This document shows, piece after piece, positions 17,168-63,710 of a stretch of DNA of 64,000 nucleotides. The stretch is from Heptranchias perlo. Its lineage: Eukaryota. Location: assembly GCF_035084215.1 (NCBI RefSeq), contig NC_090363.1, positions 9,424,001-9,488,000 of the forward strand. The letters run 5' to 3'. Position numbers and translations under genes: made by a program. Position 1 is the first letter of the stretch; the number at the start of each line of letters is the position of its first letter. A model generated the notes under the pieces. It made no database searches, was not told the DNA's origin, and saw only the letters and a list, made by a program, of their open reading frames with translations.

Positions 17168-18809
17168 CAATAAGATCATGGCTGATCTGATCCTAACCTC
17201 AAATCTAAATTCATGTCCAATTTCCTGCCTGCTCCCCGTAACCCCTAATTCCCTTTACTTCTAGGAAACTGTCTATTTCTGTTTTAAATTTATTTAATGA
17301 TGCAGCTTCCACAGCTTCCTGGGGCAGCAAATTCCACAGACCTACTACCCTCTGAGTGAAGAAGTTTCTCCTCATCTCAGTTTTGAAAGAGCAGCCCCTT
17401 ATTCTAAGATTATGCCCCCTAGTTCTAGTTTCACCCATCCTTGGGAACATCCTTACCGCATCCACGCGATCAAGCCCCTTCACAATCTTATATGTTTCAA
17501 TAAGATCGCCTCTCATTCTTCTGAACTCCAATGAGTAGAGTCCCAATCTACTCAACCTCTCCTCATATGTCCGCCCCCTCATCCCCGGGATTAACCGAGT
17601 GAACCTTCTTTGTACTACCTCGAGAGCAAGTATGTCTTTTCTTAAGTATGGACACCAAAGCTGTGTGCAGTATTCCAGGTGCGGTCTCACCAATACCTTA
17701 TTTAACTGCAGCAATACCTCCCTGTTTTTATATTCTATCCTCCTAGCAATAAAAGCCAACATTCCGTTGGCCTTCTTGATCACCTGCTGCACCTGCATAC
17801 TAACTTTTTGATTTTCTTGCACTAGGACCCCCAGATCCCTTTGTACTGCAGTACTTTCCAGTTTCTCGCCATTAAGATAATAACTTGCTGTCTGATTTTT
17901 CCTGCCAAAGTGCATAACCTCACATTTTCCAATATTGTATTGCATCTGCCAAATCTCCGCCCACTCACCCAGCTTGTCTATATCCCCCTGTAGGTTTTTT
18001 ATGTCCTCCTCACTCTCCACTTTCCCTCCCATCTTTGTATCATCTGTAAACTTTGATATGTTACACTCGGTCCCCTCCTCCAGATCGTTAATATAGATTG
18101 TAAAGAGTTGGGGACCCAGCACCGACCCCTGCGGAACACCACTGGCTACTGGTTGCCAGTCCGAGAATGAACCATTTATCCCAACTCTCTGCTTCCTGTT
18201 AAATAACCAATCCTCCACCCATGCCAGAATATTACCCCCAATCCAGTGATTCTTTATCTTGAGCAATAATCTTTTATGTGGCACCTTGTCGAATGCCTTC
18301 TGGAAGTCTAAATACACTACGTCCACTGGTTCCCCTTTATCCACCCTGTACGTTATGTCCTCAAAGAACTCAAGCAAATTTGTCAGACATGACTGCCCCT
18401 TCGTAAAGCCATGCTGACTTTGTCCTATTAAATTATGTTTATCCAAATGTTCCGCTACTGTCTCCTTAATAATAGACTCCAAAATTTTACCCACCACAGA
18501 TGTTAGGCTAACTGGTCTATAATTTCCAGCCTTCTGCCTACTACCCTTTTCTCCCTTTTTAAACAACGGTACAACATTAGCAGTCCTCCAATCCTCTGGC
18601 ACCACACCTGTAGCCAGGGAGGATCGGAAAATGATGGTCAGAGCCTCTGCTATTTCCTCTCTTTCTTCTTTTAACAGCCTGGGATACATTTCATCTGGGC
18701 CTGACGATTTATCTACTTTAAAAGATCCTAAACCCCTTAATACTTCCTCTCTCACTATGTTTATCCCATCCAATATTTCACACTCCTCCTCCTTAACTAC
18801 AATCTATTG

Positions 18810-23399: not shown

Positions 23400-24080
23400 T
23401 GCTATCAGTCAGACCAAGTCCCACCCCCTGTGGAGTTGTAAATGAAAATGGAAGCGAAAAGACGGAGCACTTGTGGAGAGTCGCCGCGATTGGGGTAGTT
23501 GTGCATCAAAAGGCAGGATTTGAAGAGTTTGATGCCGTGAACCCAAGTGACTTTTGAGCTAGCGGATTAGTTTGGGTTTCGCTGGATGGAGCGACAGTTC
23601 ACTCTTCTATTGCCGCTGCGCCTCTTCCTCCACCTCCTGCTCCTGCTCCGGTCGCTTGATACAGAAGGTAAGGGAGGAACTAAAGTGGGGAAAGGGTTTA
23701 AAGATCGGCAGCGGAGAACCCAAGTGCCGCAGATCCTGCAAAGAGGGTCGGAAATGTGGGCCCACCTGAGTGACAAAATGTTACTCGTAACTTTCGTCAG
23801 CGGCTCAAGTTGCAGTGTGCGCATGCTCCTTATTGGGGGAGTTGGCGGGGGAGGTCAGAGGATCGCCTCTGGTCACCGAAATCCCTGCTGTAACAGTCCG
23901 GGTTTGTAATTGTTGTTGGAGGGGGTTCCTGGAGGGTTGATCTTGGGTAATGATGATCGTTAATTACGATGCTGAGCTCTTCTTCCTTCGCCTCCGCGTC
24001 CACTTCTTTGCCCCGCCCCCGCCCCCGCCCCTTTCTTCCATCTTCAGCATTCTCGTTCCCGCTGGCCTCTTACCCGCTCA
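23400..24080 (+). promoter_or_regulatory. CpG-rich promoter / first exon / first intron region of the Ig-5TM gene
   Basis: Visibly elevated CpG density relative to flanks, tandem GC boxes (gccccgcccccgcccccgccc, about 24010-24030), surrounds the ATG exon. Confidence 0.5.
23586..23667 (+). CDS. Ig-5TM receptor gene exon 1, signal peptide MERQFTLLLPLRLFLHLLLLLRSLDTE
   Basis: ATG plus Leu-rich leader, AAG|GTAAGG donor, 82 nt (phase 1), in a CpG-rich region, in frame with the IgV exons. Confidence 0.85.
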
Positions 24081-28210: not shown

Positions 28211-28453
28211 ACGCCCCCGTGTTCTTCCTTTCCGCGCGCCCCCCCCCCAAACCTTGGCCCCTTAGTATGGTCACTGTATCACAGTAAACATCAGATATCC
28301 AGGTCCTGAATTACCAATGAGTAACTCGATTGATATCTGCTGGTATAATGTGTACTCCCATTTGCTGCAGTTTTTCTTCACATTTACAGTTGTATTTCAT
28401 TGTTTAGTTGCCTCAGTTTAAATTATTAAATTTGCTTTTTTTATGTCAATCAG

Positions 28454-28759
28454 CTGGAATGAAAAATGTGTTTGGTGTCGTTGGTTCTTCAGTTTTACTG
28501 GATCCTGAATACGAAGCTGATCTCAGCAACAGTGATATTATATGGGAGTTCACTGCCAGCAACAAAAGCCCTGTAACAATTTTGGATTATGTACCAAATG
28601 GCCAGAAAGAGGAACCAAATAAACACTTCAAATCTCGTTTACATTTTAATGCTTCGAATGGCTCTTTGATGTTAAACAATTTTAAACCTAGCGACCAAGG
28701 GGTTTATACCATCACCGTAGATACACAAGTGCCAAGAAGAATAGATTTGAGGCTCACTG
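28454..28759 (+). CDS. Ig-5TM receptor exon 2, IgV domain A (CD2/SLAM/CEA-type, no B-F disulfide)
   Basis: cAG acceptor and G|GTAAGT donor, 306 nt, phase 1-1. Motifs GVVGSSVLL, IIW, FKSRLHF, GSLMLNN, SDQGVYTITV. Confidence 0.9.
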
Positions 28760-29574
28760 GTAAGTAGTTTCAATACTTTGTAGACTTTGAAAGTGATGCA
28801 GCTATTCACTACTTAAGAACTGTCTGTTGCAGAATAGGAACAGGAGTAGGCCATTCAGCCCCTCGAGCCTATTCCACCATTCCATAAAATCATGGCTGAT
28901 TTGTACCTCAACTCCATTTACCTACCTTTCTTCCCTATCCCCTGATACTCTTGCCCAACAAAAATCTATCGATCTCAATCTTGAAAATTACAATTGACCC
29001 AGTAGCCACAGCCTTGGACAATAGATTTCCACTACATAAGAAATAAGAGCAGGAGTAGGCCATACGGCCCCCGAGCCTGCTTTGCCATTCAATAAGATCA
29101 TGGTTGATCTTCTACCTCAACTCCACTGTGAAAAAATGCTCTGCTGACTTCACTACTAAATGGCCTAGCTCGTTTGCATGATGTAACTGCTCTTTGTACT
29201 GGTTAAATCAGCATCGACTTTTATTAAGCACCAACTTTATTTGCTAACTGCTTAGTGCTGAGATACAGCCTGGAAATTTGAGACGGGGAGGAGGATGGAT
29301 ATAAGGGGTTACAAGTGGTTTTACTGCATTTGGTTTTTTTAAGTCCACACACCCTGACATCCACATAGGTCCAAATCCTCAACAATCCCCACCCCAGTGC
29401 TTATACAAATGCAAGTTCTTTCTTTTATATATAATGCCTTTCACGACCTTAGGACGTCTAAAGCGCTTTACAGCCAATTAAGTACTTTTGAAGTGTAGTC
29501 ACCGTTGTAATATAGGAAACGTGGCATTCAATTTACACACAGCAAGATTCCCACAACCAACAATGTGATAATAC

Positions 29575-30075
29575 GACACAGAATTGCACTGATGTGCCAA
29601 GTGATGATGGACCTGGAAAAGAACATATGGTCATTGCATCTCCCGCTCCCAACAAAACCTCGTCTGTATAATATCTGCATCACTCCAATTCTCCTGTATG
29701 CATCGGAGACATGGACTGTCTCGCAAGTCGACTTGCCCAGCAGACCAGTGGTGTCTTCGCCATGTTCAGTGGTGTGACTACATCATCAATAGTCAGGTCA
29801 GAAAGATAACTGCCCAACAAAATGTCACAATTACCAAAAGGCGTTTATCGCTGTTTGAACACATGGCCAGGCTAGGCCATTCACGTGACACATCCAGGAC
29901 ATTCCGAGCCTGTCCTTTTTAAAGACCTGGAAACACTTCCCTAGAAGGCCAAGAAGCATCTGGCTCTCAACTGTTACGGCTGACCTCTGGTCCCTGAAAA
30001 CAAGGTTCTTCTGCGCCATGCGAAGAGCCAAGGACTGTGAAGGATGGAGATATTTGATCCACCAAGCATCACTAT
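29575..30075 (+). mobile_element. RTE-clade-like LINE 3' fragment
   Basis: TKPRLYNICITPILLYASETW and RRLSLFEHMARL motifs. Confidence 0.65.
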
Positions 30076-31914
30076 GAAGGAGCATACTACAATGACACAC
30101 ACTTCTGCACAACCTACATGTGCTGATAGTACTGTGCCAGTAGGTGGCGTGATAAACACAACTTTATGTGACACATAGAAAATAGTGGAATTAAAGTTGT
30201 GATGCCCACCTACTGAATCTACTTCATTGCAGAACCATTTACTGTCTTCAAAAAATTGCAGTACTTGCCCCATGGGATCAACTCCTGCAAAGATCATCAT
30301 GTCGCTAAGGAAACCATGGCCCCAGCTTTAAATGCCAATCAGCTGAAATAGAAAAAAGAAAAATTGAATGAAAGCGAAATTCGAGAGAAGCCGGAATTGG
30401 TACTACCCAGTATCCTGTTGAGACTGAAATCTTCATGTAAATCATATTCTGAACAGTTGAAGCCCATGTGGAAAGCCTTTGAAAGAAATAATCGTGGTCC
30501 AAAAGGGTGAAATACATATGCAAGCATGTGGCCGAACAAGGATGGATCACAGTCGGCCAGAAGAAATGACAAAAGCATTGTTCCCTCCCCACTCCACTGA
30601 GAGAATTCATATGCCATTCTCACGAACCCCCCTGCCCCGCTGAGGTTAAAAGCGGCTGTAAGCACCCCCCTTTGAGGGCAAACTGTTTGAGGCTCGGATT
30701 TTTTTTTTGTTAATTGTAAAAACTTCGAGACTGCATAAACTATGAACTTTTCAGCATTTTATGTGATAACGGGTTTATGGAATTTTATGTTTAATGAAGA
30801 CTTAGTCTCCCTTGTGCACTAAATTTTCTGCTTTTGCAGTCCTGGCACACACTGGGCATGCATAGTAGGAAATTGCATACACGATGCCTGTGATTAACCA
30901 TCCATTTATTTAAGAAAATTTGCATTTATATGCTTTAAGGGGATAACATAATGACAGCAACTAGTTGATAATGGGGAAATTGGTGCTGGGGTACCGGAGG
31001 GTGCAAAAGGACCGACAGTTAGGATTGGGGAAGAGGCTGATGGCTTGAAAGATGCCAGTAAAGTGGCAGTTTTGCTGCCATTCTACTGGCCCCCCCCACA
31101 TGGCCCCCCTCTCCCAGGCTGTTAGAACCTGGTCCCTCAACACACCGATGTCAGCAACCCCCAACACTCCAGACTTGGAGGGGGGTGCAATTTTCCAAAA
31201 CCAGAGTTCAGCTGAATCCCTCCCCCTGCTCCCTGTTTAGTCTTCACAAACCCCTAGACTACATCCTTGCTGCTTCTAGAAATGATCGCTCTGCATTGTT
31301 CCCAGAACTCTGCAACTCCCTTAAAATACTGTTCGACATTGAGACCTCCATCCAGCACCGCCACACTCCAGGCCTCCTTTTATCAGTGCTCCCAGATCCT
31401 ACTACCACGTCCAATGTTTCTGGTAATATTACTTGGTGTAACACTTCTGTTCTTATAAAACTTCGGAGTCATCGTGAGTAATGCCACAGGAGATTTCTGG
31501 TTGCTGACATATTGAAGTCCTCTACATTTTGGTATTGGTAAGCTGTGTGATAGTCTTACCTAGTCAGTCATGGGATATATCAGTAAATTTGGTGCAATCC
31601 AGCAATGGGTAAAACGTTATATTTAGGCCGCAGTGTGGTCACTGTAAACATCAGAGGGTAGAGATTCCACTTTGGGAAATTCCGCCTGAAATTTCACTGG
31701 TTAGGGTACAGTTTAAGTTTCTGCTAAAATGCATTTGGATTATCACAAACATAAAATCTTCCATGGATCAGCGCAATCGGGCAACGTAATAGAATGTAAT
31801 TTTTTTTTCTTTGCATTAAAAAATATTCATGTATTTAAGAGTGGTAATCTGGTGCAGTTTTATTAATACAGCTGAAAATGGGTTTAATCACAAAAAAATA
31901 AGCATTTTTAGTAC

Positions 31915-33170
31915 CCTTTCAGGAAGTGCGTTTCAGATCTTAACAACCCTCTGTGAAAAAAAATTCCCCTTATTTCCTCTCTCATTCATTTGCAAATTAT
32001 TTTAAATCTGTGATCGCTGGTTATTGACACACTTGCCAGAGGAAACAGTTTCTCCCTACTTACTTTATCAAAACCCCTCGTAGTTTTAGGCGTAACTCAC
32101 TTATGCTTAAAATGACCATAGAAGCTTACAACACAGAAGGAGGCCATTTGGCCTGTGTTGGCTCTTTGAAAGAGCTGTCCAATTTAGTCCCACATCCCAG
32201 CTTTTTCCTCATAACCTTGCAAATTAGTCTTCTTCAAGAACATGTCCAATTGCCTTTTGAAAGTTCCTGTGGAATCTGATTCCACCACCCTTTCAGAGTG
32301 CATTCCAGATCATAACAACCCTCTGTGGGAAAAAAAATTCCCCTAATTTTCCCTCTAGTTCTTTTGCCAGTTATTTTAAATCTATGATCTCTGGTTCCCG
32401 ACCCACTTGCCAGAGGAAACGGTTTCTCCCTACTTGCTCTATCAAAGCTCCTCATAATTTTGAATACCTCTATTGGGTCCCCCCTTAACCTTCTCTGCTC
32501 TAAGGAGAGCAATCCCAGCTTCTCTAATCTCTCCACATAACTGAATTCCCGCATTCCTGGTATCCTCCTGGTAAACCTCCTTTGTACCCTCACCAAGGCC
32601 TTGACATCCTTCCTAAAGTGTAGTGTCCAGAATTGGACACAATAGTCCAGCTGAGGCCTAACCAGTGATTTGTGAAGGTTTAGCATGACTTCCTCGTTTT
32701 TGTATTCAGAGCCCCCATTTACAAAACCAAGCATCCCAAACGCTTTCTTAACCACCTTATCAACTTGCCGTGCCACCTTCAAAGATTTGTGAATATGCAT
32801 CCCAGGTCCCTCTGCTTTTGCTCCCCCCTCAAAATGGTACCATTTAGATAATATTGTCTCTCCATATTGTTCCTACCAAAGTGCATCACTTCACACTTAT
32901 CCGCATTAAATTGCATCTGCCCATTTCACCAGTCTGTCTATATCCTCCTGAAGTCTGCTACTATCCTGCTCACTATTTACCATGCTGCCAAGTTTTGTGT
33001 CATCTCCAAACTTTGAAATTATACCCTCTAAACCCAAGTCCAGGTCATTTATATATAACAAAAAAAGCAATGGTCCTAATACCGACCCCTGGGGGACCTC
33101 ACTGCATACTTCTTTGCGGTCAGAAAAAGATCCGTTCACCACTGCTCTCTGCCTCGTATCCCTTAGCCCA
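31915..33170 (-). mobile_element. CR1 LINE fragment nested in a TIR element (about 31657-33266) upstream of IgV copy B
   Basis: ORFs 32234..32800 and 32906..33178. Flanks gggtagagattccac / gtggaaactgatagccc interrupt sequence that is contiguous in copy A. Confidence 0.8.
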
Positions 33171-33425
33171 ATTACCAAAATTCCCTGATCTTTTGCGCTG
33201 GTTTGGCCAATTCCGTCTAGATTGCACTGATATTATTGGCGTAAACAAGTGGAAACTGATAGCCCCTGATAGCCAGGTCCTGAACTCCCAATGAGTAACT
33301 CCATGGATATCTGCTGGTATAACGTGTACTCCCATTGCTGTAGTTTTTCTTCACATTTACAGTTGTATTTCATTGTTTAGTTGCCACAGTTTAAATTATT
33401 AAATTTGCTTTTTTATGTCAATCAG

Positions 33426-33731
33426 CGGGAAAGAAAAATGTGTTTGGTGTCGTTGGTTCTTCAGTTTTACTGGATCCTGAATATGAAGCTGATCTCAGCA
33501 ACAGTGATATTTTATGGCTGTTCAATGGCAGCAATAAATCCCTTGTAACAATTTTGGATTACGTACCAAATGGCCAGAAAGAGGAACCAAATAAACACTT
33601 CAAATCTCGTTTATATTTTAATGCTTCGAATGGCTGTCTGATGTTAAACAATTTTAAACCCAGCGACCAAGGGATTTATACCATCACCGTGGATGCACAA
33701 GTGCTAAGAAGAATAGATTTGAGGCTCACTG
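33426..33731 (+). CDS. Ig-5TM receptor exon 3, IgV domain B (duplicate of exon 2)
   Basis: Same splice sites and 306-nt length. 21 nt and 11 aa differences from copy A by manual alignment; frame intact. Confidence 0.88.
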
Positions 33732-35264
33732 GTAAGTAGTTTCAATACTTTGTAGACTTTGAAAGTGATGCAGCTCATGAACTATTCACTACTTAAGAAC
33801 TGTCTGTTGCAGAATAGGAACAGGAGTAGGCCATTCAGCCTATTCCACCATTCCATAAAATCATGGCTGATTTGTACCTCAACTCCATTTACCTGCCTTT
33901 CTTCCATATCTCCTGATACCCTTGCCCAACAAAAAATCTGTCGATCTCAATCTTGAAAATTTCAATTGAACCAGTATCCACAGCCTCAGACAATAGATTT
34001 CCACTTCCCTTTGTGTGAAAAAATGCCCTGCAGATTTTACTATTAAATGGCCTAGCTCTAATTTTAAGATTATGTCCCCTTGTTCTGGATTCTCCCACCA
34101 GAGGAAGTGGTGGTAGTCGTCTTCATTCAAAGTTAAACTGAACCACTGATCCAATAGGAGAAAAAATGACATTATGGAAATTAAATGCAGCTGTTCAGTC
34201 AGCCTCCATTGCTGTAATATGTCTGTCATCCCATGGAGAGATCCACCAGGGATTGTGATCCACCATCCTTAGCTATATTGGTGAGGTGAAGGCAGGAGAA
34301 CTCTTTCCCAAATCAGAAAATTGGAAGTTTCTGGTAGGTGGAGGGGGAATCAGCAAAGGAGGGGAGAGGTGGGCAGTATCAGGATTGAGGTTGAATGTAA
34401 CATTTTGGGATTTCAGACCATGCTGCCAGCGAGGGACCTTGATGTAATATATCTTAAAAATGCTACTAATGAGCTAAATACAGAGGACAGCAGAGCTGGG
34501 AGATGTAGATTGAAATTCTCTGGGCAAGCTTGCTGCAAACAGTGAAAGACTCCAGTGCTATGAGAACGGTTTCCATTAGAACTCAGTAGGGGTCATTGCC
34601 AAGTTAGGCTGGTGGATTCTACCCCCTCGGGGAGAAGGGGGAGTAGTCAGTGTTAGTAAAACTTCCCTGGCATCAGGCTGATGGAAGAAAAGATGAAACT
34701 GCAGGGAGAGGACATTCTGCCCTGGGCTGAAGGCCATAATGCAGGGGTTCAGTTTCTTGCAGCCAGTGGTTGTACAGAAAATCAGATCTATTCTGAAAAT
34801 GCCAGTAGAATAGTGTGGTGTGCTCATTGGATTAATTGGGTTTCGATTCCAGCTGGTGCTCTTAATTTCGTTTGCCGTCTGGAAAATAAAGCAGCTTCAT
34901 GATTTACATCTGGCCTCTTACGTTTGGAAAAATTGGAGAGGAATGTGAAGTCATGTACAGAAGACAAAAAATATCCGGTTCAGGTTGCAGGAGGGTGCCA
35001 TTGTTACACCACAGGTTATGCTATTGCAGAAGTAGATATAGGGCAGTGTGAGTCAACTCTGACAAAGTAATGTGCTCAGTCCACTTACAAGAGCGACTGA
35101 TGATTAATGATTTTAAATTGATGACCCTCCCCTGTCACTGACTTCCCTAACCAGAGGAAATACTTTCCCATTAACTCAATCATAATTTTTAACAAAACTC
35201 TATGAAAATCTCCTTTAGCCTTTTTTTCTTCTTGTGGAATAAGTCCCAGACTCCCAAGTTCCAG

Positions 35265-36849: not shown

Positions 36850-37119
36850 AACCACTGTCGGAACCTTTGATCATTAGTAATTCTACCTATGTGGATACCA
36901 CCGTTGAACTGATCTGTCATGTGCCTGTGGGGAAAGCGAGTTCCATTCAGTGGAGGAAAGATGACGAAGTGATAACGAATGGCCAACGTTATGAGTTAGT
37001 GCAAAACAACAGCAAGTTGATTATTTCTAAAGCCAACAAATCAGACTGCGGGATATACACCTGCACCGTTGAAAACCCTGTTAGCGAGAAGAATAATTCG
37101 TATTCTCTTTCTCTTTACA
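36850..37119 (+). CDS. Ig-5TM receptor exon 4, IgC2/I-set domain (EPLSEPLI...VELICH...IQWRKD...SDCGIYTCTVENPVS...SLSLY)
   Basis: ctcccacAG acceptor, A|GTAAGT donor, 270 nt, phase 1-1. Canonical C...W...DxGxYxC plus NPVS, typical of second domains in the CD2/CEA/HEPACAM families. Confidence 0.92.
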
Positions 37120-38174: not shown

Positions 38175-38291
38175 GTCTTACACAAATGCATCATTGCACT
38201 ATGGGATTGTACATTGCTACACTGATTACTGCTGGTATTGCAACCTTGATCAAAACAATCTCTTGCTTCGTTGACTGCATCAATAAAATAA
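38175..38291 (+). CDS. Ig-5TM receptor exon 5, TM1: SLTQMHHCTMGLYIATLITAGIATLIKTISCFVDCINKI
   Basis: tttctatttcAG acceptor, A|GTAAGA donor, 117 nt, phase 1-1, open, hydrophobic helix. Confidence 0.82.
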
Positions 38292-38486: not shown

Positions 38487-38588
38487 GTCATCAGTTTCTT
38501 CAACATGTACTACAAGCCTTGCAGTTTGCCCCAATGCTTTCATTTATCAGTCTTTTCGCTGCATCTGTGTGTTGGATATGGGCTGAAG
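38487..38588 (+). CDS. Ig-5TM receptor exon 6, TM2: SHQFLQHVLQALQFAPMLSFISLFAASVCWIWAE
   Basis: ttattcaAG acceptor, AAG|GTATTG donor, 102 nt, phase 1-1, inside ORF 38435..38764. Confidence 0.75.
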
Positions 38589-38658
38589 GTATTGTATGTG
38601 CTCCTGTTACCTTTCTCTCTGTTAGTAATTGCATTTCTGTCAATACTTCTGACATCCG

Positions 38659-38892
38659 GGGGGTGATTTTAACCCCCAAGAACAGGTGGGTTGAGGGCGG
38701 GTGGGAGTTGAAAGTAGTTGTTTTTTGGGTCGCGACCGCAACCTGGTTTTATTTCCAGGTTTAACTTGGCGTGTAAAAGTACAGGCTTCCCACTGGGAAT
38801 GCAAAGTCCAAAAATTTTGCAGTTGCGACCCTAAAACAACGACTATTTTCAACTCCCAAACCCACCCATTCTTGGGGGTTAAAATCACCCCC
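38659..38892. mobile_element. PIF/Harbinger-type MITE, copy 2, 70 bp downstream of the TM2 exon
   Basis: Same TIRs and internal sequence as 1943-2184; TSD not preserved. Confidence 0.85.
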
Positions 38893-39434: not shown

Positions 39435-42400
39435 ATGTTGTCCAGGTCTTGCTGCATGCGGGCACGGACTGCTTCATTATCTGAGGGGTTGCAAATGCAA
39501 CTGAACACTGTGCAATCATCAGCGAACATCCCTATTTCTGACCTTATGATGGAGGGAAGGTCATTGATGAAGCAGCTGAAGATCGTTGGGCCTAGGACAC
39601 TGCCCTGAGGAACTCCTGCAGCAATGTCCTGGGGCTGAGATGATTGGCCTCCAACAACCACTACCATCTTCCTTTGTGCTAGGTATGACTCCAGCCACTG
39701 GAGAGTTTTCCCCCTGATTCCCATTGACTTCAGTTTTACTAGGGCTCCTTGGTGCCACACTCTGTTAAATGCTGCCTTGATGTCAAGGGCAATTACTCTC
39801 GCCTCACCTCTGGAATTCAGCTCTTTTGTCCATGTTTGGACCAAGGCTGTAATGAGGTCAGGAGCCGAGTGGACCTGGCGGAATCCAAACTGATCATCGG
39901 TGAGCAGGTTATTTATTGGTGAGTAAGTGCCGCTTGATGGAAGGTGTCATCGACAGTGCTATCACTTTGCTGCTGATTGAGAGTAAGCTGGTGGGGCGGT
40001 AATTGGCCGGATTGGATTTGTCCTGCATTTTGTGGACAGGACATACCTGGGCAATATTCCAGATTGTCGGGTAGATGCCAGTGTTGTAGCTGTACTGGAA
40101 CAGCTTGGCTAGAGGCACAGCTCGTTCTGGAGCACAAGTCTTCATTACTACAGCTGGGATGTTGTCGGGGCCCATAGCCTTTGCTGTATCCAGTGCACTC
40201 AGCCGTTTCTTGATATCACGTGGAGTGAATCGAATTGGCTGAAGACTGGCTTCTGTGACGGTATGAGGCCGAGATGGATCATCCGCTCGGCACTTCTGGC
40301 TGAAGATGGTTGCAAACACTTCAGCCTTGTCTTTTGTACTCACGTGCTGGACTCCATCATTGAGGATGGGGATGTTTACAGAGCCTCCTCTTCCCGTTAG
40401 TTGTTTAATTGTCCACCACAATTTACGACTGGATGTGGCAGGACTGCAGAGCTTTGATCTGATCCATTGGTTGTGGAATCGCTTAGCTCTGTCCATAGCA
40501 TGTTGCTTCTGCTGTTTAGCATGCATGTAGTCCTGAGTTGTAGCTTCACCAGGTTGACACCTCATTTTTAGGTACGCCTGGTGCTGCTCCTGGCATGCTT
40601 TTCTGCACTCCTCATTGAACCAGGGTTGATCCCCTGGCTTGTTGGTCATGTTAGAGTGAGGAATATGCCGGGCCACGAGGTTATAGATTGTGCTGGAATA
40701 CAAATCTGCTGCTTGATGTGAGCATTTGTTGGACAATCTGTACTGCAGTGTTGTAGCCCTATCTTCATCACTTGCTCATATCAAGTACTGCTCCCAATGA
40801 GAGTGCAGGATACTAAACTTACCATGTAGTGAAAATTCACCACTGGAAGCCTGGTCAACAGTAAGGTCAGAGCATGTGGAGTCAGGGACAAGTAGCAGAA
40901 TGGATAGCAAGCTGGCTTTTTTTTTATTCATTCATGGGATGTGGGCGTCGCTGGCGAGGCGAGCATTTGTTGCCCATCCCTAATTGCCCTTGAGAAGGTG
41001 GTGGTGAGCCTTCTTGAACCACTGCAGTCCATGTGGTGAAGGTTCTCCCACAGTGCTGTTAGGAAGGGAGGACCAGGATTTTGACCCAGCGACGATGCAG
41101 GAACGGTGATGTATTTCCAAGTCGGGATGGTGTTTGACTTGGAGGGGAACGTGCAGGTGGTGTTGTTCCCATGTGCCTGCTGCCCTTGTCCTTCTAGGTG
41201 GTAGAGGTTGCGGGTTTGGGAGGTGCTTTTGAAGAAGCCTTGGCGAGTTGCTGCAGTGCATCCTGTGGATGGTACACACTGCAGTCACTGTGCGCCGGTG
41301 GTGAAGGGAGTGAATGTTTAGGGTGGTGGATGGGGTGCCAGTCAAGCGGGCTGCTTTGTCCTGGATGGTGTTGAGCTTCTTGAGTGTTGGAGCTGCACTC
41401 ATCCAGGCAAGTGGAGAGTATTCCGTCACACCCCTGACTTGTGCCTTTTAGATGATGAAAAGGCTTTGGGGAGTCAGGAGGTGAGTTACTTGCTGCAGAA
41501 TACCCAGCCTCTGACCTACTCTTGTAGTCACAGTATTTATGTGGCTGGTCCAGTTAAGTTTCTGGTCAATGGTGACCCCCAGGATGTTGATGGTGGGGGA
41601 TTCGGCGATGGTAATGCCGTTGAATGTCAAGGGGAGGTGGTTAGACTCTCTTGTTGGAGATGGTCATTGCCTGGCACTTGTCTGTCGCGAATGTTATTTG
41701 CCCGTATCAGCCCAAGCCTGGATGTTGTCCAGGTCTTGCTGCATGCGGGCACGGACTGCTTCATTATCTGAGGGGTTGCAAATGCAACTGAACACTGTGC
41801 AATCATCAGCGAACATCCCTATTTCTGACCTTATGATGGAGGGAAGGTCATTGATGAAGCAGCTGAAGATCGTTGGGCCTAGGACACTGCCCTGAGGAAC
41901 TCCTGCAGCAATGTCCTGGGGCTGAGATGATTGGCCTCCAACAACCACTACCATCTTCCTTTGTGCTAGGTATGACTCCAGCCACTGGAGAGTTTTCCCC
42001 CTGATTCCCATTGACTTCAGTTTTACTAGGGCTCCTTGGTGCCACACTCTGTTAAATGCTGCCTTGATGTCAAGGGCAATTACTCTCGCCTCACCTCTGG
42101 AATTCAGCTCTTTTGTCCATGTTTGGACCAAGGCTGTAATGAGGTCAGGAGCCGAGTGGACCTGGCGGAATCCAAACTGATCATCGGTGAGCAGGTTATT
42201 TATTGGTGAGTAAGTGCCGCTTGATGGAAGGTGTCATCGACAGTGCTATCACTTTGCTGCTGATTGAGAGTAAGCTGGTGGGGCGGTAATTGGCCGGATT
42301 GGATTTGTCCTGCATTTTGTGGACAGGACATACCTGGGCAATATTCCAGATTGTCGGGTAGATGCCAGTGTTGTAGCTGTACTGGAACAGCTTGGCTAGA

Positions 42401-45287
42401 GGCACAGCTCGTTCTGGAGCACAAGTCTTCATTACTACAGCTGGGATGTTGTCGGGGCCCATAGCCTTTGCTGTATCCAGTGCACTCAGCCGTTTCTTGA
42501 TATCACGTGGAGTGAATCGAATTGGCTGAAGACTGGCTTCTGTGACGGTATGAGGCCGAGATGGATCATCCGCTCGGCACTTCTGGCTGAAGATGGTTGC
42601 AAACACTTCAGCCTTGTCTTTTGTACTCACGTGCTGGACTCCATCATTGAGGATGGGGATGTTTACAGAGCCTCCTCTTCCCGTTAGTTGTTTAATTGTC
42701 CACCACAATTTACGACTGGATGTGGCAGGACTGCAGAGCTTTGATCTGATCCATTGGTTGTGGAATCGCTTAGCTCTGTCCATAGCATGTTGCTTCTGCT
42801 GTTTAGCATGCATGTAGTCCTGAGTTGTAGCTTCACCAGGTTGACACCTCATTTTTAGGTACGCCTGGTGCTGCTCCTGGCATGCTTTTCTGCACTCCTC
42901 ATTGAACCAGGGTTGATCCCCTGGCTTGTTGGTCATGTTAGAGTGAGGAATATGCCGGGCCACGAGGTTATAGATTGTGCTGGAATACAAATCTGCTGCT
43001 TGATGTGAGCATTTGTTGGACAATCTGTACTGCAGTGTTGTAGCCCTATCTTCATCACTTGCTCATATCAAGTACTGCTCCCAATGAGAGTGCAGGATAC
43101 TAAACTTACCATGTAGTGAAAATTCACCACTGGAAGCCTGGTCAACAGTAAGGTCAGAGCATGTGGAGTCAGGGACAAGTAGCAGAATGGATAGCAAGCT
43201 GGCTTTTTTTTTATTCATTCATGGGATGTGGGCGTCGCTGGCGAGGCGAGCATTTGTTGCCCATCCCTAATTGCCCTTGAGAAGGTGGTGGTGAGCCTTC
43301 TTGAACCACTGCAGTCCATGTGGTGAAGGTTCTCCCACAGTGCTGTTAGGAAGGGAGGACCAGGATTTTGACCCAGCGACGATGCAGGAACGGTGATGTA
43401 TTTCCAAGTCGGGATGGTGTTTGACTTGGAGGGGAACGTGCAGGTGGTGTTGTTCCCATGTGCCTGCTGCCCTTGTCCTTCTAGGTGGTAGAGGTTGCGG
43501 GTTTGGGAGGTGCTTTTGAAGAAGCCTTGGCGAGTTGCTGCAGTGCATCCTGTGGATGGTACACACTGCAGTCACTGTGCGCCGGTGGTGAAGGGAGTGA
43601 ATGTTTAGGGTGGTGGATGGGGTGCCAGTCAAGCGGGCTGCTTTGTCCTGGATGGTGTTGAGCTTCTTGAGTGTTGGAGCTGCACTCATCCAGGCAAGTG
43701 GAGAGTATTCCGTCACACCCCTGACTTGTGCCTTTTAGATGATGAAAAGGCTTTGGGGAGTCAGGAGGTGAGTTACTTGCTGCAGAATACCCAGCCTCTG
43801 ACCTACTCTTGTAGTCACAGTATTTATGTGGCTGGTCCAGTTAAGTTTCTGGTCAATGGTGACCCCCAGGATGTTGATGGTGGGGGATTCGGCGATGGTA
43901 ATGCCGTTGAATGTCAAGGGGAGGTGGTTAGACTCTCTTGTTGGAGATGGTCATTGCCTGGCACTTGTCTGTCGCGAATGTTATTTGCCCGTATCAGCCC
44001 AAGCCTGGATGTTGTCCAGGTCTTGCTGCATGCGGGCACGGACTGCTTCATTATCTGAGGGGTTGCAAATGCAACTGAACACTGTGCAATCATCAGCGAA
44101 CATCCCTATTTCTGACCTTATGATGGAGGGAAGGTCATTGATGAAGCAGCTGAAGATCGTTGGGCCTAGGACACTGCCCTGAGGAACTCCTGCAGCAATG
44201 TCCTGGGGCTGAGATGATTGGCCTCCAACAACCACTACCATCTTCCTTTGTGCTAGGTATGACTCCAGCCACTGGAGAGTTTTCCCCCTGATTCCCATTG
44301 ACTTCAGTTTTACTAGGGCTCCTTGGTGCCACACTCTGTTAAATGCTGCCTTGATGTCAAGGGCAATTACTCTCGCCTCACCTCTGGAATTCAGCTCTTT
44401 TGTCCATGTTTGGACCAAGGCTGTAATGAGGTCAGGAGCCGAGTGGACCTGGCGGAATCCAAACTGATCATCGGTGAGCAGGTTATTTATTGGTGAGTAA
44501 GTGCCGCTTGATGGAAGGTGTCATCGACAGTGCTATCACTTTGCTGCTGATTGAGAGTAAGCTGGTGGGGCGGTAATTGGCCGGATTGGATTTGTCCTGC
44601 ATTTTGTGGACAGGACATACCTGGGCAATATTCCAGATTGTCGGGTAGATGCCAGTGTTGTAGCTGTACTGGAACAGCTTGGCTAGAGGCACAGCTCGTT
44701 CTGGAGCACAAGTCTTCATTACTACAGCTGGGATGTTGTCGGGGCCCATAGCCTTTGCTGTATCCAGTGCACTCAGCCGTTTCTTGATATCACGTGGAGT
44801 GAATCGAATTGGCTGAAGACTGGCTTCTGTGACGGTATGAGGCCGAGATGGATCATCCGCTCGGCACTTCTGGCTGAAGATGGTTGCAAACACTTCAGCC
44901 TTGTCTTTTGTACTCACGTGCTGGACTCCATCATTGAGGATGGGGATGTTTACAGAGCCTCCTCTTCCCGTTAGTTGTTTAATTGTCCACCACAATTTAC
45001 GACTGGATGTGGCAGGACTGCAGAGCTTTGATCTGATCCATTGGTTGTGGAATCGCTTAGCTCTGTCCATAGCATGTTGCTTCTGCTGTTTAGCATGCAT
45101 GTAGTCCTGAGTTGTAGCTTCACCAGGTTGACACCTCATTTTTAGGTACGCCTGGTGCTGCTCCTGGCATGCTTTTCTGCACTCCTCATTGAACCAGGGT
45201 TGATCCCCTGGCTTGTTGGTCATGTTAGAGTGAGGAATATGCCGGGCCACGAGGTTATAGATTGTGCTGGAATACAAATCTGCTGCT
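39435..45287. repeat. Tandem repeat, period 2287 bp, about 2.5 copies (LINE 3' part plus about 200 bp of flank)
   Basis: ORFs recur with identical translations at exact +2287 offsets (39909/42196/44483; 40980/43267). Confidence 0.95.
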
Positions 45288-46320
45288 TCTGATGGCCCAC
45301 AGCACCTCATGGAGGCCCAGTTTTGAGCTGCCAGATCTGTTCTGAATCTATCCCAATTAGCACGGTGATAGTGCCACACAACAACGTTGGATGGTGTCCT
45401 CAGTGCGAAGACTTCATCTGCACGAGGATTGTGCGGTGGTCACTCCTACCAATACTGTCATGGACAGATGCATCTGCGACAGGTAGATTGATGAGGACGA
45501 GGTCAAGTAGGTTTTTCCCTCGTGTTGGTTCACTCACCACCTGCCGCAGGCCCAGTCTGGCAGCTATGTCCTTCAAGGGCTCGGTCAGTAGTGTTGCTAC
45601 CGAGCCACTCTTGATGATGGGCATTGAAGTCCCCCACCCAGAGTACGTTCTGTACCCTTGCTACCCTCGGTGCTTCCTCCAAGTAGTGCTTAACATGGAG
45701 GAGGACTGATTCATCAGCTGAGGGAGGACGGTAGGTGGTAATCAGCAGGAGGTTTCCTTGCCCATGTTTGGCTTGATGCCATGAGATGTCATGGGGTCCG
45801 GAGTCAATGTTGAGGACTCATAGGGCCACTCCCTCCTGACTGTATATCACTGTACCGCCACCTCTGGTGGGTCTGCCCTGCCGGTGGGACAGGACATACC
45901 CAGGAATGGTGATGGAAGAGTCCGGGACGTTGGCTGAAAGGTATGATTCTGTGAGTATGGCTATGTCAGGCTGTTTGCTTGACTAGTCTGTGGGACAGCT
46001 CTCCCAATTTTGGCACAAATCCCCAGATGTTCGTGAGGAGGACTTTGCAGGCTTGGTTTGCCTTAGTCGTGTCTGGTGTCTCGTGGTCTGTCCGGTTTTA
46101 TTCTTTATTATGACTTTTTTTAAGCGATATTTTACAACTGAGTGGCTTGCTAGGCCATTTCAGAGGGCAAGAATCAACCACATTGCTGTGGGTCTGGAGT
46201 CATATGTAGGCCAGACCGGGTAAGGACGGCAGGTTTCATTACCTAAAGGGCATTAGTGAACCAGATAAGTTTTTATGACAATCCGGTAGTTTCATGGCCA
46301 CCATTATTAATACTAGTTTT
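43204..46320 (-). mobile_element. Long copy of the second Jockey-group LINE family (endonuclease + RT, frameshifted)
   Basis: PTRGKNLLDLVL...SDH endonuclease motif, [22 protein letters not shown], poly-T/ttca tail. Confidence 0.88.
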
Positions 46321-51067: not shown

Positions 51068-51193
51068 GATGTTCTAGAATCAAAGTGTTTGTGTTGGTGC
51101 TTTCGTGTCTTCTGATCATATTAACCACGTTACCGGCTTTTAGTAGGATGACCTGTGCCCCAAAATGGTTAAAAAAGATCTTGTCGACCAAAC
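51068..51193 (+). CDS. Ig-5TM receptor exon 7, TM3: GCSRIKVFVLVLSCLLIILTTLPAFSRMTCAPKWLKKILSTK
   Basis: T-rich tract plus aatAG acceptor, C|GTAAGT donor, 126 nt, phase 1-1. Strongly hydrophobic helix followed by a basic loop. Confidence 0.82.
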
Positions 51194-53156: not shown

Positions 53157-53252
53157 TTTGCAGGGCAATACTGGGTGCAGTAACTCCATTGGGTGAAATC
53201 ACTGTGATATGTGCATCGGGTATCCTGCTTGCGGAAGTAATGAAACAAGCTG
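53157..53252 (+). CDS. Ig-5TM receptor exon 8, TM4: LCRAILGAVTPLGEITVICASGILLAEVMKQA
   Basis: Long pyrimidine tract plus ccAG acceptor, G|GTGAGT donor, 96 nt, phase 1-1, open. Confidence 0.8.
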
Positions 53253-56415: not shown

Positions 56416-56517
56416 ATAAAGGATGTGATCCAGCTATCAATCTACAATCAACTATAATATTAGCTGTGATGGGGCCACTGGTTCTTCTGGTTGCAAGCTT
56501 TGCAGTTTACATCGTAT
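56416..56517 (+). CDS. Ig-5TM receptor exon 9, extracellular loop and TM5: DKGCDPAINLQSTIILAVMGPLVLLVASFAVYIV
   Basis: ttggcAG acceptor, T|GTAAGT donor, 102 nt, phase 1-1, hydrophobic helix. Confidence 0.82.
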
Positions 56518-60471: not shown

Positions 60472-60551
60472 ATACAAAATGGAAAAAATGGACAACTAGA
60501 GCTCTGCCTACATATCCCAGTGTAAACGATCCTGATGAGTTTCATTGTATT
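60472..60551 (+). CDS. Ig-5TM receptor exon 10, cytoplasmic: YTKWKKWTTRALPTYPSVNDPDEFHCI
   Basis: caacAG acceptor, ATT|GTAAGT donor, 80 nt, phase 1 to 0. Basic stop-transfer KWKK directly follows TM5. Confidence 0.78.
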
Positions 60552-61347: not shown

Positions 61348-61452
61348 GAGTTGAATTCAGCACCACCGCTACCAGTGAAGAACAACCTTCAATCTAGGAC
61401 CACTGCTACCAGTGAAGAACAACCTTCAATCTCGGACCACTGCTACCAGTGA
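61348..61452 (+). CDS. Ig-5TM receptor terminal coding exon: ELNSAPPLPVKNNLQSRTTATSEEQPSISDHCYQ*
   Basis: tcttttttctgtAG acceptor, phase 0, open to TGA at 61450-61452. A competing acceptor ends at 61314. Confidence 0.65.
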   Translation, partial: ELNSAPPLPVKNNLQSRTTATSEEQPSISDHCYQ

Positions 61453-61659: not shown

Positions 61660-63710
61660 CGGAATTAGTAAAGAAATTAAGGATAGTATCCGACTAAAAA
61701 CAAGGACATATAAGGTAGCCAAACTTAGTGGGAGGATAGAAGATTGGGAAGTCTTCAAAAGACAGCAAAAAGTAACTAAAGGATTGATTGATTAAGAAAG
61801 GGAAGATAGATTATGAAAATAAATTAGCAAAAAATATAAAAACAGATAGCAAGAGTTTCTACAGTTATATAAAAAGAAAAAGGGTGGCTAAGGCAAATGT
61901 AGGTCCCTTAGAGGATGAGACCGGGAAATTAATGGTGGGAAACATGGAGATGGCAAAATTGCTGAACAAATATTTTGTTTCAGTCTTTACGGTAGAGGAC
62001 ACTAAGAATATCCCAACACTGGACAAACGGGGGGCTCTAGGGGGGGGGGGGAGGAGCTAAATACAATTAAAATCACTAAGGAATTGGTACTCAGTAAATT
62101 AATGGGACTCAAGGCAGATAAATCCCCTGGACCGAATGGCTTACATCCTAGGGTCTTGAGGGAAGTGGCAGTAGGGATTGTGGATGCTTTGGTAATAAAT
62201 TTCCAAAATTCTCTGGACTCGGCAAAGGTCCCGGCAGATTGGAAAACTGCTAATGTAACACTCTTATTTAAAAAGGGTAGTAGGCAGAAGGCTGGAAATT
62301 ATAGACCAGTTAGCCTAACATCTGTGGTGGGTAAAATTTTGGAGTCTATTAATAAGGAGACAGTAGCGGAACATTTGGATAAACATAATTTAATAGGACA
62401 AAGTCAGCATGGCTTTACGAAGGGGACGTCATGTCTGACAAATTTGCTTGAGTTCTTTGAGGACATAACGTACAGGGTGGATAAAGGGGAACCACTGGAC
62501 GTAGTGTATTTAGACTTCCAGAAGGCATTCGACAAGGTGCCACAAAAAAGATTAGTGCTCAAGATAAAGAATCACTGGATTGGGGGTAATATTCTGGCAT
62601 GGGTAGAGGATTGGTTATCTAACAGGAAGCAGAGAGTTGGGAATAAATGGTTCATTCTCTGACTGGCAACCAGTAGCCAGTGGTGTTCCGCAGGGGTCGG
62701 TGCTGGGTCCCCAACTCTTTACAATCTATATTAACGATCTGGAGGAGGGGACCGAGTGTAACATATCAAAGTTTGCAGATGATACAAAGATGGGAGGGAA
62801 AGTAGAGAGTGAGGAGGACATAAAAAACCTACAAGGGGATATAGACAGGCTGGGTGAGTAGGCGGAGATTTGGCAGATGCAATACAATATTGGAAAATGT
62901 GAGGTTATGCACTTTGGCAGGAAAAATCAGACAGCAAGTTATTATCTTAATGGCGAGAAACTGGAAAGTACTGCAGTACAAAGGGATCTGGGGGTCCTAG
63001 TGCAAGAAAATCAAAAAGTTAGTATGCAGGTGCGCAGGTGATCAAGAAGGCCAACGGAATGTTGGCTTTTATTGCTAGGGGGATAGAATATAAAAACAGG
63101 GAGGTATTGCTGCAGTTAAATAAGGTATTGGTGAGACCACACCTGGAATACTGCATACAGTTTTGGTGTCCATACTTAAGAAAAGACATACTTGCTCTCG
63201 AGGCAGTACAAAGAAGGTTCACTCGGTTAATCCCGGGGATGAGGGAGCGAACATATGAGGAGAGGTTGAGTAGATTGGGACTCTACTCATTGGAGTTCAG
63301 AAGAATGAGAGGCGATCTTATTGAAACATATAAGATTGTGAAGGGGCTTGATCGGGTGGATGCGGTAAGGATGTTCCCAAGGATGGGTGAAACTAGAACT
63401 AGGGGGCATAATCTTAGAATAAGGGGCTGCTCTTTCAAAACTGAGATGAGGAGAAACTTCTTCACTCAGAGGGTAGTGGGTCTGTGGAATTTGCTGCCCC
63501 AGGAAGCTGTGGAAGCTACATCATTAAATAAATTTAAAACAGAAATGGACAGTTTCCTAGAAGTAAAGGGAATTAGGGGTTACGGGGAGCGGGCAGGAAA
63601 TTGGACATGAATTTAGATTTGAGGTTAGGATCAGATCAGCAATGATCTTATTGAATGGCGGAGCAGGCTCAAGGGGCCGATTGGCCTACTCCTACTCCTA
63701 TTTCTTATGC
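61660..63710 (+). mobile_element. Young CR1 LINE subfamily B, 5'-truncated, with frameshifts and a stop
   Basis: ORFs 61788, 62084, 62637 and 63038; near-identical to 16825-18549 in the opposite orientation. Confidence 0.92.

What the first reader, a model, noticed from the sequence alone, without database searches (positions are those of the whole stretch)
28294..34058. Tandem-duplicated IgV exon: V-V-C2 or mutually exclusive ligand-binding domains, diverged in a hotspot
Seen: two intact 306-nt phase 1-1 exons with duplicated flanking intron (about 28294-29170 vs 33268-34058). They differ at 21 nt and 11 aa. Nine of the 21 nt changes, and 5 aa changes, fall in 11 codons: IWEFTASNKSP vs LWLFNGSNKSL, including two double-nucleotide codon changes (GAG/CTG, AGC/TCC). 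Two more are in the FG region (DTQVP vs DAQVL). Established: the C strand, CC' loop and FG region form the GFCC' ligand-binding face in CD2-family V domains. Inference: diversifying selection or a gene-conversion patch from a paralogue. Because the exons are symmetric, A-only, B-only and A+B isoforms are all in frame, giving a possible splice-switched specificity.
Basis: partly seen in the sequence, partly recalled or inferred. Interest (0 to 1): 0.72.

Follow-up and report, generated by a model that had tools for sequence, protein, structure and literature searches.

The report
Doubled Ig exon in shark receptor
A shark cell-surface receptor gene carries two copies of its outermost antibody-like exon that are spliced one after the other rather than as alternatives; the inner copy has changed quickly on the surface predicted to bind ligands, and the gene belongs to an unnamed vertebrate family predicted to cross the membrane five times like CD47.

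Summary
The cluster is modestly significant (scan p 0.0035, 0.017 after correcting for window size, 0.066 at amino-acid level). The splice switch is not supported. RNA contigs of one sample show leader-A, A-B and B-C2 junctions, and their break pattern matches L-A-B-C2 alone. RefSeq already lists the V-V-C2 protein (P0001). No donor paralogue was found. Divergence is one-sided: A keeps the ancestral patch, B changed (protein branch lengths 0.008 vs 0.12), gaining an N-glycan site on that face and losing another. The patch exceeds the flanking-intron rate about sixfold, so local selection on B is likelier than drift, on few sites. The gene is not a CD2/SLAM member. It encodes V-V-C2 plus five predicted membrane helices, and belongs to an unnamed family seen in chimaera, sharks, rays, amphibians, turtles, birds and monotremes. 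Two co-occurring cysteines predict a CD47-like tether between the Ig domain and an extracellular loop. The exon duplication is an ordinary process; the host family is the better lead.

The parts
23586..23667 (+). Exon 1: ATG and signal peptide, phase 1
   Evidence: Matches P0001 residues 1-27; spliced to exon A in RNA contigs of X1, X2 and X4
28294..29171 (+). Duplicated block, copy A (exon with intron flanks; repeat inserted at about 29034-29126)
   Evidence: blastn; alignment
28454..28759 (+). Exon A: distal V-set domain without cysteine, ancestral-type
   Evidence: Pfam V-set E 1.3e-10; branch length 0.0083; junctions leader-A and A-B
28540..28571 (+). Patch in A (codons 29-39; C strand, CC' loop, start of C')
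   Evidence: E31, T33, A34 and P39 shared with Pristiophorus P0010 and with the leader-joined V of organism B
33268..34058 (+). Duplicated block, copy B
33426..33731 (+). Exon B: proximal V-set domain, fast-changing copy
   Evidence: Pfam V-set E 6.9e-9; branch length 0.12; junctions A-B and B-C2
33512..33543 (+). Patch in B: 9 nt and 5 aa changed; new N-glycosylation sequon N33-G-S at 33524-33532
36850..37119 (+). C2/I-set Ig exon; canonical cysteine pair plus extra Cys298 (codon 37047-37049)
   Evidence: spliced to B in X4
38175..38291 (+). Exon for predicted membrane helix 1
38487..38588 (+). Exon for predicted membrane helix 2
51068..51193 (+). Exon for predicted membrane helix 3
53157..53252 (+). 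Exon for predicted membrane helix 4
56416..56517 (+). Exon for second extracellular loop (Cys472, codon 56424-56426) and predicted helix 5
60472..60551 (+). Cytoplasmic exon 1
61348..61452 (+). Last coding exon with stop codon

Best explanation
A tandem duplication doubled the V exon of this receptor gene, both copies are spliced in series (leader-A-B-C2), and the outer copy A likely stays the ligand-binding domain while the inner copy B has likely been remodelled by selection on its former binding face. Shown: the exon structure, the three junctions, the one-sided divergence and the sequon swap in B (N33 gained, N68 lost). Inferred: the protein is one Ig domain longer; A binds in trans through its GFCC'C'' sheet as CD2 and CD58 do; B now acts as a second-tier or spacer domain whose old face would be masked by the new glycan and made more hydrophobic (E31L, P39L, P93L). 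Predicted: C2 is tied by a Cys298-Cys472 bond to the second extracellular loop of a five-helix membrane domain. Ligand and signal are untested. My odds: series splicing is the main form, 0.9; the patch reflects selection rather than drift or clustered mutation, 0.6.
For: Junction contigs: leader-A in X1, X2 and X4, A-B in X2 and X4, B-C2 in X4. Simulated contig lengths for L-A-B-C2 alone (51, 79, 111, 111, 185, 255, one long) equal the 7 X4 records, while the three skipping models add or shift breaks (after masking the one site where the RNA sample shows no A/B difference). RefSeq P0001 has both domains. One-sidedness: branches 0.0083 vs 0.12. Organism B's leader-joined V is A-type at 14 of 18 covered sites, B-type at 3 (all synonymous) and different at 1 (hand count; binomial p=0.013; replacement 9:0 vs silent 3:3, Fisher p=0.044). 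23 of 32 family V domains are closer to A, 4 to B, 5 tie (rows not independent). Rate: patch 9/32=28%, flanking intron 18/423=4.3%, exon outside the patch 12/274=4.4%. Changed sites are family-variable (mean entropy 1.79 vs 1.17, p=0.002). A second V sequence in organism B differs from A at codons 28, 29, 31, 32 and 33, with residues at 31 and 33 unlike B's. The GFCC'C'' sheet as ligand site of CD2, CD58 and CD48: PMC11969063, passages.
Against: Whole-exon pN/pS is 0.059/0.093, below 1, and exon vs flank is not significant (p=0.135). Only 5 residues make the patch, with amino-acid clustering p=0.066-0.072. Two of its seven changed codons keep the residue (N36, S38). G34 and L39 of B are common in other family members (20 and 13 of 27), so they may just be tolerated. 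A 181-nt run without substitution (28734-28923, p=0.00045) hints that A-B conversion has lowered the flank rate used as yardstick. The RNA is one sample, held as contigs only, and labelled RNA by guess; rare isoforms would drop out. Organism B's V may be the orthologue of A rather than an outgroup to both. No ligand is known and side-chain exposure was inferred from strand position, not measured.
Confidence: 0.55

Rival explanations
1. Relaxed constraint: B is simply a spacer drifting at tolerant surface sites, and the patch is a chance or doublet-inflated cluster.
For: pN/pS 0.63 overall; residue-level clustering not significant; B's new residues G34 and L39 are common in the family; counting doublets once weakens p to 0.018.
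Against: Drift should not exceed the neutral rate, yet the patch is at 28% vs 4.3% in the flanks, and 14 B-side changes stand against 5.6 expected (p=0.002; assumes the flank is neutral and organism B is an outgroup).
Confidence: 0.2
2. Older duplication with ongoing A-B gene conversion that homogenises most of the block while selection keeps conversion out of the patch, as described for bovine CEACAM32.
For: 181-nt substitution-free run, p=0.00045; the RNA sample's B carries the A letter at the 28512 site; organism B also has two V types; precedent in PMC7042247 (abstract).
Against: The run holds two indels (8 and 9 nt), which a recent conversion would have erased. Divergence outside the patch is otherwise even (5.1%, 4.4%, 3.8%).
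Confidence: 0.12
3. Splice-switched specificity: A-only and B-only isoforms are made in some cells.
For: All exons are phase 1-1 and the splice sites are near-identical. RefSeq lists isoforms of a Hypanus family member with 5, 4 and 2 V domains (P0002, P0003, P0013; predictions, not checked).
Against: No skipping junction among the 12 records of X2 and X4 on exon A; contig pattern fits series splicing only; 4.7 kb between the exons leaves no steric bar to joining them.
Confidence: 0.06
4. The patch came from clustered mutation, such as template switching at a fold-back, not selection.
For: Two doublets; 7 of 9 patch changes are transversions vs 12 of 30 elsewhere (p=0.065); B folds a more stable DNA hairpin than 95% of random letters at the same sites (p=0.049).
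Against: The test was post hoc; the register test gives p=0.24 and RNA parameters give p=0.16; the stem keeps a mismatch at the invariant Trp codon.
Confidence: 0.04
5. The patch was copied into B from a divergent paralogue.
For: Dense, short tract with silent and replacement changes; several paralogues lie within 250 kb.
Against: The next-best V match in the genome is 37% identical. DNA and peptide searches return only A and B, plus a 58-nt intron piece, and none turned up in 200 kb of neighbouring DNA. A donor missing from the assembly is not excluded.
Confidence: 0.03

Closest known systems
CD2/SLAM family (CD2, CD58, CD48)
   Same: Cysteine-free V domain followed by C2. The model's V-C2 part fits CD2 (1hng, TMt 0.74), CD58 (1ccz, 0.74) and CD48 (2dru, 0.72) best by target-normalised TM-score among the listed rows. 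Weak Receptor_2B4 Pfam match.
   Different: Five predicted membrane helices instead of one or a GPI anchor (the family's anchor type is recalled); two V domains in series; no ITSM-type motif in the tail.
CEACAM family (CEACAM1; bovine CEACAM32)
   Same: Cysteine-free N-type V plus C2; CEA and CEACAM1 are the top V-C2 sequence matches of the family profile; fast change of ligand faces and escape from conversion are known there (PMC7042247, abstract).
   Different: CEACAMs have one membrane helix or a GPI anchor (PMC4079198, passages). Here the duplicate is an exon inside one gene, not a paralogous gene.
CD47
   Same: Ig ectodomain on five membrane helices. CD47 has an Ig-to-ECL2 disulfide, C15-C245 (PMC8410850, passages and section 10); here Cys298 and Cys472 co-occur in 75 of 83 family sequences and are both absent in 5.
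   Different: Two or three Ig domains instead of one; the tether cysteine is in C2, not in V; no SWF linker motif in 8 of 8 members checked; no sequence or fold match to CD47 was listed (inconclusive).
Ig-exon duplications in the same family (RefSeq models)
   Same: Hemitrygon P0056 is V-V-C2; Hypanus P0002 has five V domains; Heterodontus P0004 and Scyliorhinus P0018 are V-C2-C2; Scyliorhinus P0020 and P0023 are V-V'-C2.
   Different: Separate events: A and B group together (support 91/88) and the Hypanus repeats form their own clade.

Membership tests
CD2/SLAM family | N-terminal V-set domain without the B-F disulfide | tested here: met
   Pfam V-set; A has no cysteine, B has one at position 70 only
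CD2/SLAM family | Membrane-proximal C2-type domain | tested here: met
   Exon 36850-37119, Ig_3/I-set hits; V-C2 fold fits CD2, CD58 and CD48
CD2/SLAM family | Single membrane helix or GPI anchor (recalled) | tested here: not met
   Five hydrophobic segments, five exons and five long helices in the model
CD2/SLAM family | ITSM motifs in the tail (SLAM subgroup; recalled) | tested here: not met
   Only YPSV, without the S/T at -2, in the last 70 residues of P0001
CD2/SLAM family | Binding to family members through the GFCC'C'' face | not testable with these tools
   Needs a binding assay
CD2/SLAM family | Synteny with the CD2 or SLAM clusters | not tested
   Only 200 kb of neighbouring DNA was scanned, and only for Ig and membrane exons
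CEACAM family | Cysteine-free IgV N domain plus IgC2 domains | tested here: met
CEACAM family | One membrane helix or GPI anchor | tested here: not met
   PMC4079198 passages vs five predicted helices
CD47 | Five membrane helices | tested here: met
   Predicted: hydropathy, one exon per helix, model with mean pLDDT 73
CD47 | Single IgV ectodomain | tested here: not met
   V-V-C2 here, V-C2 in most relatives
CD47 | Disulfide from Ig domain to second extracellular loop | tested here: inconclusive
   Co-occurrence of Cys298 and Cys472: 75 both, 5 neither, 3 only one, of 83; the bond itself was not observed
CD47 | SWF linker motif before helix I | tested here: not met
   0 of 8 members carry SWF after residue 200
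CD47 | CD47 membrane fold or Pfam PF04549 match | tested here: inconclusive
   Not listed; top Z 10.8 is a generic helical bundle; the genome search with PF04549 rang nowhere, controls included
Mutually exclusive exon pair (Dscam-type) | The two exons are not joined to each other in mRNA | tested here: not met
   A-B joint in X2 and X4

The most novel reading that the evidence does not exclude
This gene belongs to a second, undescribed family of five-pass Ig receptors, kept from chimaeras to platypus, that works like CD47: a cell-surface marker whose Ig stalk is locked by a disulfide onto a five-helix bundle. Its reach and binding face are retuned by repeated Ig-exon duplication, and in this shark selection has rewritten the binding face of the inner V copy.
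Probability: 0.3. Interest if true: 0.7.

Novelty: new variant of a known kind. Interest (0 to 1): 0.42.

Why it matters
The duplication is a clean small case of what happens after an Ig exon doubles inside one gene: series splicing, one copy frozen and the other remodelled on its binding face. That process is known and the protein is already in RefSeq. The larger point is the host family. CD47 is described as the only five-pass receptor of the immune system (PMC8410850, abstract). A second Ig-plus-five-helix family with a predicted Ig-to-loop disulfide, present in chicken (LOC422295) and platypus, would give an independent system in which to ask how such receptors signal and whether the CD47 design arose once or twice. 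Whether this family has an immune role was not tested.

Tried and rejected
Assembly artefact: rejected. The copies differ by 39 substitutions and 5 indels in 729 columns, and RNA contigs carry both types and their joint. Donor paralogue: none found. Homodimer prediction for domain A gave no answer and is not used either way. Fold and profile searches of the membrane part gave no match to a solved structure: no PDB sequence at E up to 10, no Foldseek hit at E up to 0.001, only generic helical bundles by VIA; CD47 was not listed, which does not exclude it. The Atlas gave one cluster of 110 chordate Ig proteins for the shark membrane part and nothing for the chicken one. PF04549 found nothing in the genome but also nothing in the controls; PF28321, precomputed for P0001, is not in the held library, so its name is unknown to me. 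The run search listed no holder on record as RNA; I treat X1-X6 as RNA because their contigs are spliced. X2 has no contig on the 3' half of B, a gap not used as evidence. Contig depths were not used to rank isoforms. The first read-laying was swamped by repeats and its joint table was cut. No marsupial, placental or teleost name appeared among 20 of 51 unnamed representatives looked up or among the 16 hits; these searches are limited and do not show absence. P0079 (14 short stretches) was treated as a chance hit. Earlier findings of this scan: three look-ups returned nothing. Ten paper searches listed no paper on this gene or family by title or abstract start, and LOC422295 is in 0 papers; subscription journals are mostly outside the library and no supplements were read.
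Full report
Observation. Exons A (28454-28759) and B (33426-33731) are open 306-nt phase 1-1 V-set exons that differ at 21 nt and 11 residues, with 9 nt and 5 residues in codons 29-39. They sit in a block duplicated about 5 kb apart. The cluster is more than chance at nucleotide level (p=0.0035 for 33 nt; 0.017 over all window sizes; 0.018 by codon) but not clearly at residue level (0.066).

The gene. A database protein, P0001, labelled Heptranchias perlo by its source, matches exon A at 100%. Eleven window exons splice to exactly this 563-residue protein: leader, A, B, C2, five phase-1 exons of 96-126 nt and two tail exons. Each of the five exons carries one hydrophobic segment, and a model of that region has five long helices (mean pLDDT 73). 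The V-C2 part fits CD2, CD58, CD48 and CEACAM1. So the ectodomain works like CD2 or CEACAM, but the protein fails the single-anchor feature of both families.

Splicing. Four runs of one sample hold the exon as contigs. Records join the leader to A (X1, X2, X4), the end of A to the start of B (X2, X4), and B to C2 in one unbroken 1291-nt record (X4). I simulated the contig lengths that four splice models would give. L-A-B-C2 alone yields 51, 79, 111, 111, 185, 255 and one long piece, which are the 7 X4 records; skipping A, skipping B or mutual exclusion each add or move breaks. The first simulation did not fit until one site (28512) was masked, where the RNA sample shows no A/B difference. Contigs drop rare forms and this is one sample, so minor skipping is not excluded, but the exons are not mutually exclusive.

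Which copy changed. In a tree of 34 V domains A and B group together (support 91/88), with branch lengths 0.0083 and 0.12. Pristiophorus shares A's E31, T33, A34 and P39. The leader-joined V of the coded relative, organism B, is A-type at 14 of the 18 A/B sites it covers, B-type at 3 silent sites and different at 1 (hand count; tests). B gains the sequon N33-G-S and loses N68-G-S through S70C; only 1 of 32 other family V domains has a sequon at 33. On the model of domain B, 8 of 11 changes fall in the C to C'' and F to G segments (45 of 101 positions, p=0.047), the side that binds ligand in CD2, CD58 and CD48 (PMC11969063, passages).

Selection, drift or conversion. The flanking intron differs at 18 of 423 columns (4.3%), the exon outside the patch at 12 of 274 (4.4%) and the patch at 9 of 32 (28%). 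Drift alone should not beat the neutral rate, so something local acted on B. Against a strong claim: whole-exon pN/pS is 0.63, two of the seven changed codons keep their residue, G34 and L39 are common in the family, and a 181-nt substitution-free run (p=0.00045) suggests conversion between A and B may have lowered the yardstick, as described for bovine CEACAM32 (PMC7042247, abstract). A fold-back mutation mechanism is borderline (p=0.049 and 0.24). A donor paralogue was not found: the next V match is 37% identical and DNA, peptide and neighbourhood searches gave only A, B and a 58-nt intron piece. Organism B has a second V sequence, changed at codons 28, 29, 31, 32 and 33 and lacking one codon in the BC loop; whether it lies in the same gene could not be told.

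Mechanism. I commit to series splicing giving a receptor one Ig domain longer, with A kept as the outer binding domain and B remodelled into a second-tier domain whose old face would be glycan-masked. The exon order, junctions, asymmetry and sequon swap are shown; binding, masking and selection are inferred.

The family. A profile of the membrane region found 62 proteins among 1.84 billion representatives, nearly all of the full-length ones V-C2-membrane. The 20 looked up come from chimaera, sharks, rays, salamanders, a caecilian, turtles, birds and monotremes and carry only automatic names. An extra cysteine in C2 (Cys298) and one in the loop between helices 4 and 5 (Cys472) occur together in 75 of 83 distinct sequences, are both missing in 5 and single in 3. 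The rows include isoforms and close orthologues, so the printed p of 4e-6 overstates the case; the five double losses look like about four events. This predicts a disulfide like CD47's C15-C245 (PMC8410850, passages and section 10). Homology to CD47 is open: no sequence or fold match was listed and the SWF motif is absent. Ig-exon duplications recur in the family, so this shark's V-V is one of several.

Literature. Ten searches listed no paper on this gene or family. I saw passages and one section of PMC8410850, passages of PMC11969063 and PMC4079198, and the abstract and outline of PMC7042247; the other papers only as search listings. The anchor types and ITSM motifs of the CD2/SLAM family are recalled.

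Verdict. The feature is real, the splice-switch and donor readings are not supported, and local selection on the inner copy is plausible on few sites. The duplication alone would score about 0.3; the unnamed five-pass family with its predicted CD47-like tether lifts the score to 0.42.

Noticed in passing
window 37047-37049 and 56424-56426: Cys298 in C2 and Cys472 in the second extracellular loop co-occur across the family (75 both, 5 neither, of 83), predicting a CD47-like interdomain disulfide.
   Followed up: partly
window 39435-45288: A LINE fragment repeated head to tail with period 2287 nt and 100% identity over 3567 nt: a very recent tandem duplication or an assembly artefact, inside the intron between helix exons 2 and 3.
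   Followed up: no
window 29529-31795: Intron stretch between A and B is covered by near-exact RNA contigs in X1-X4 and its middle has no close copy elsewhere in the genome, yet no contig links it to exon A: pre-mRNA or a separate transcript.
   Followed up: partly
window 28512 and 33484: The assembly differs between A and B here, but the RNA sample does not: a CpG polymorphism or a conversion event.
   Followed up: partly
window 28734-28923: 181 aligned columns without a substitution between the copies but with two indels of 8 and 9 nt.
   Followed up: partly
window 61348-61452: The last coding exon holds about 2.5 copies of a 37-nt unit, each read in a different frame, with the stop codon in the third (sequence).
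   Followed up: no
window 38487-38685: An X2 contig runs from the helix-2 exon about 100 nt on into the intron; the frame stays open to 38761, so a shorter form is possible.
   Followed up: no
G000:C42 9382213-9393529 (-), 9421785 (+), 9576839-9590842 (-), 9686945-9693670 (-): Neighbouring Ig genes form a cluster; at least two (P0058 and the L004 gene) have family-type membrane exons.
   Followed up: partly
P0002, P0003, P0013: A Hypanus family member has four near-identical V domains after a first membrane block, with RefSeq isoforms lacking one or three of them; V-exon skipping may be real there.
   Followed up: no
window 17168-18593 and 62237-63653: Two inverted CR1-like LINE copies at 97% identity, one with a 530-codon open frame.
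   Followed up: no
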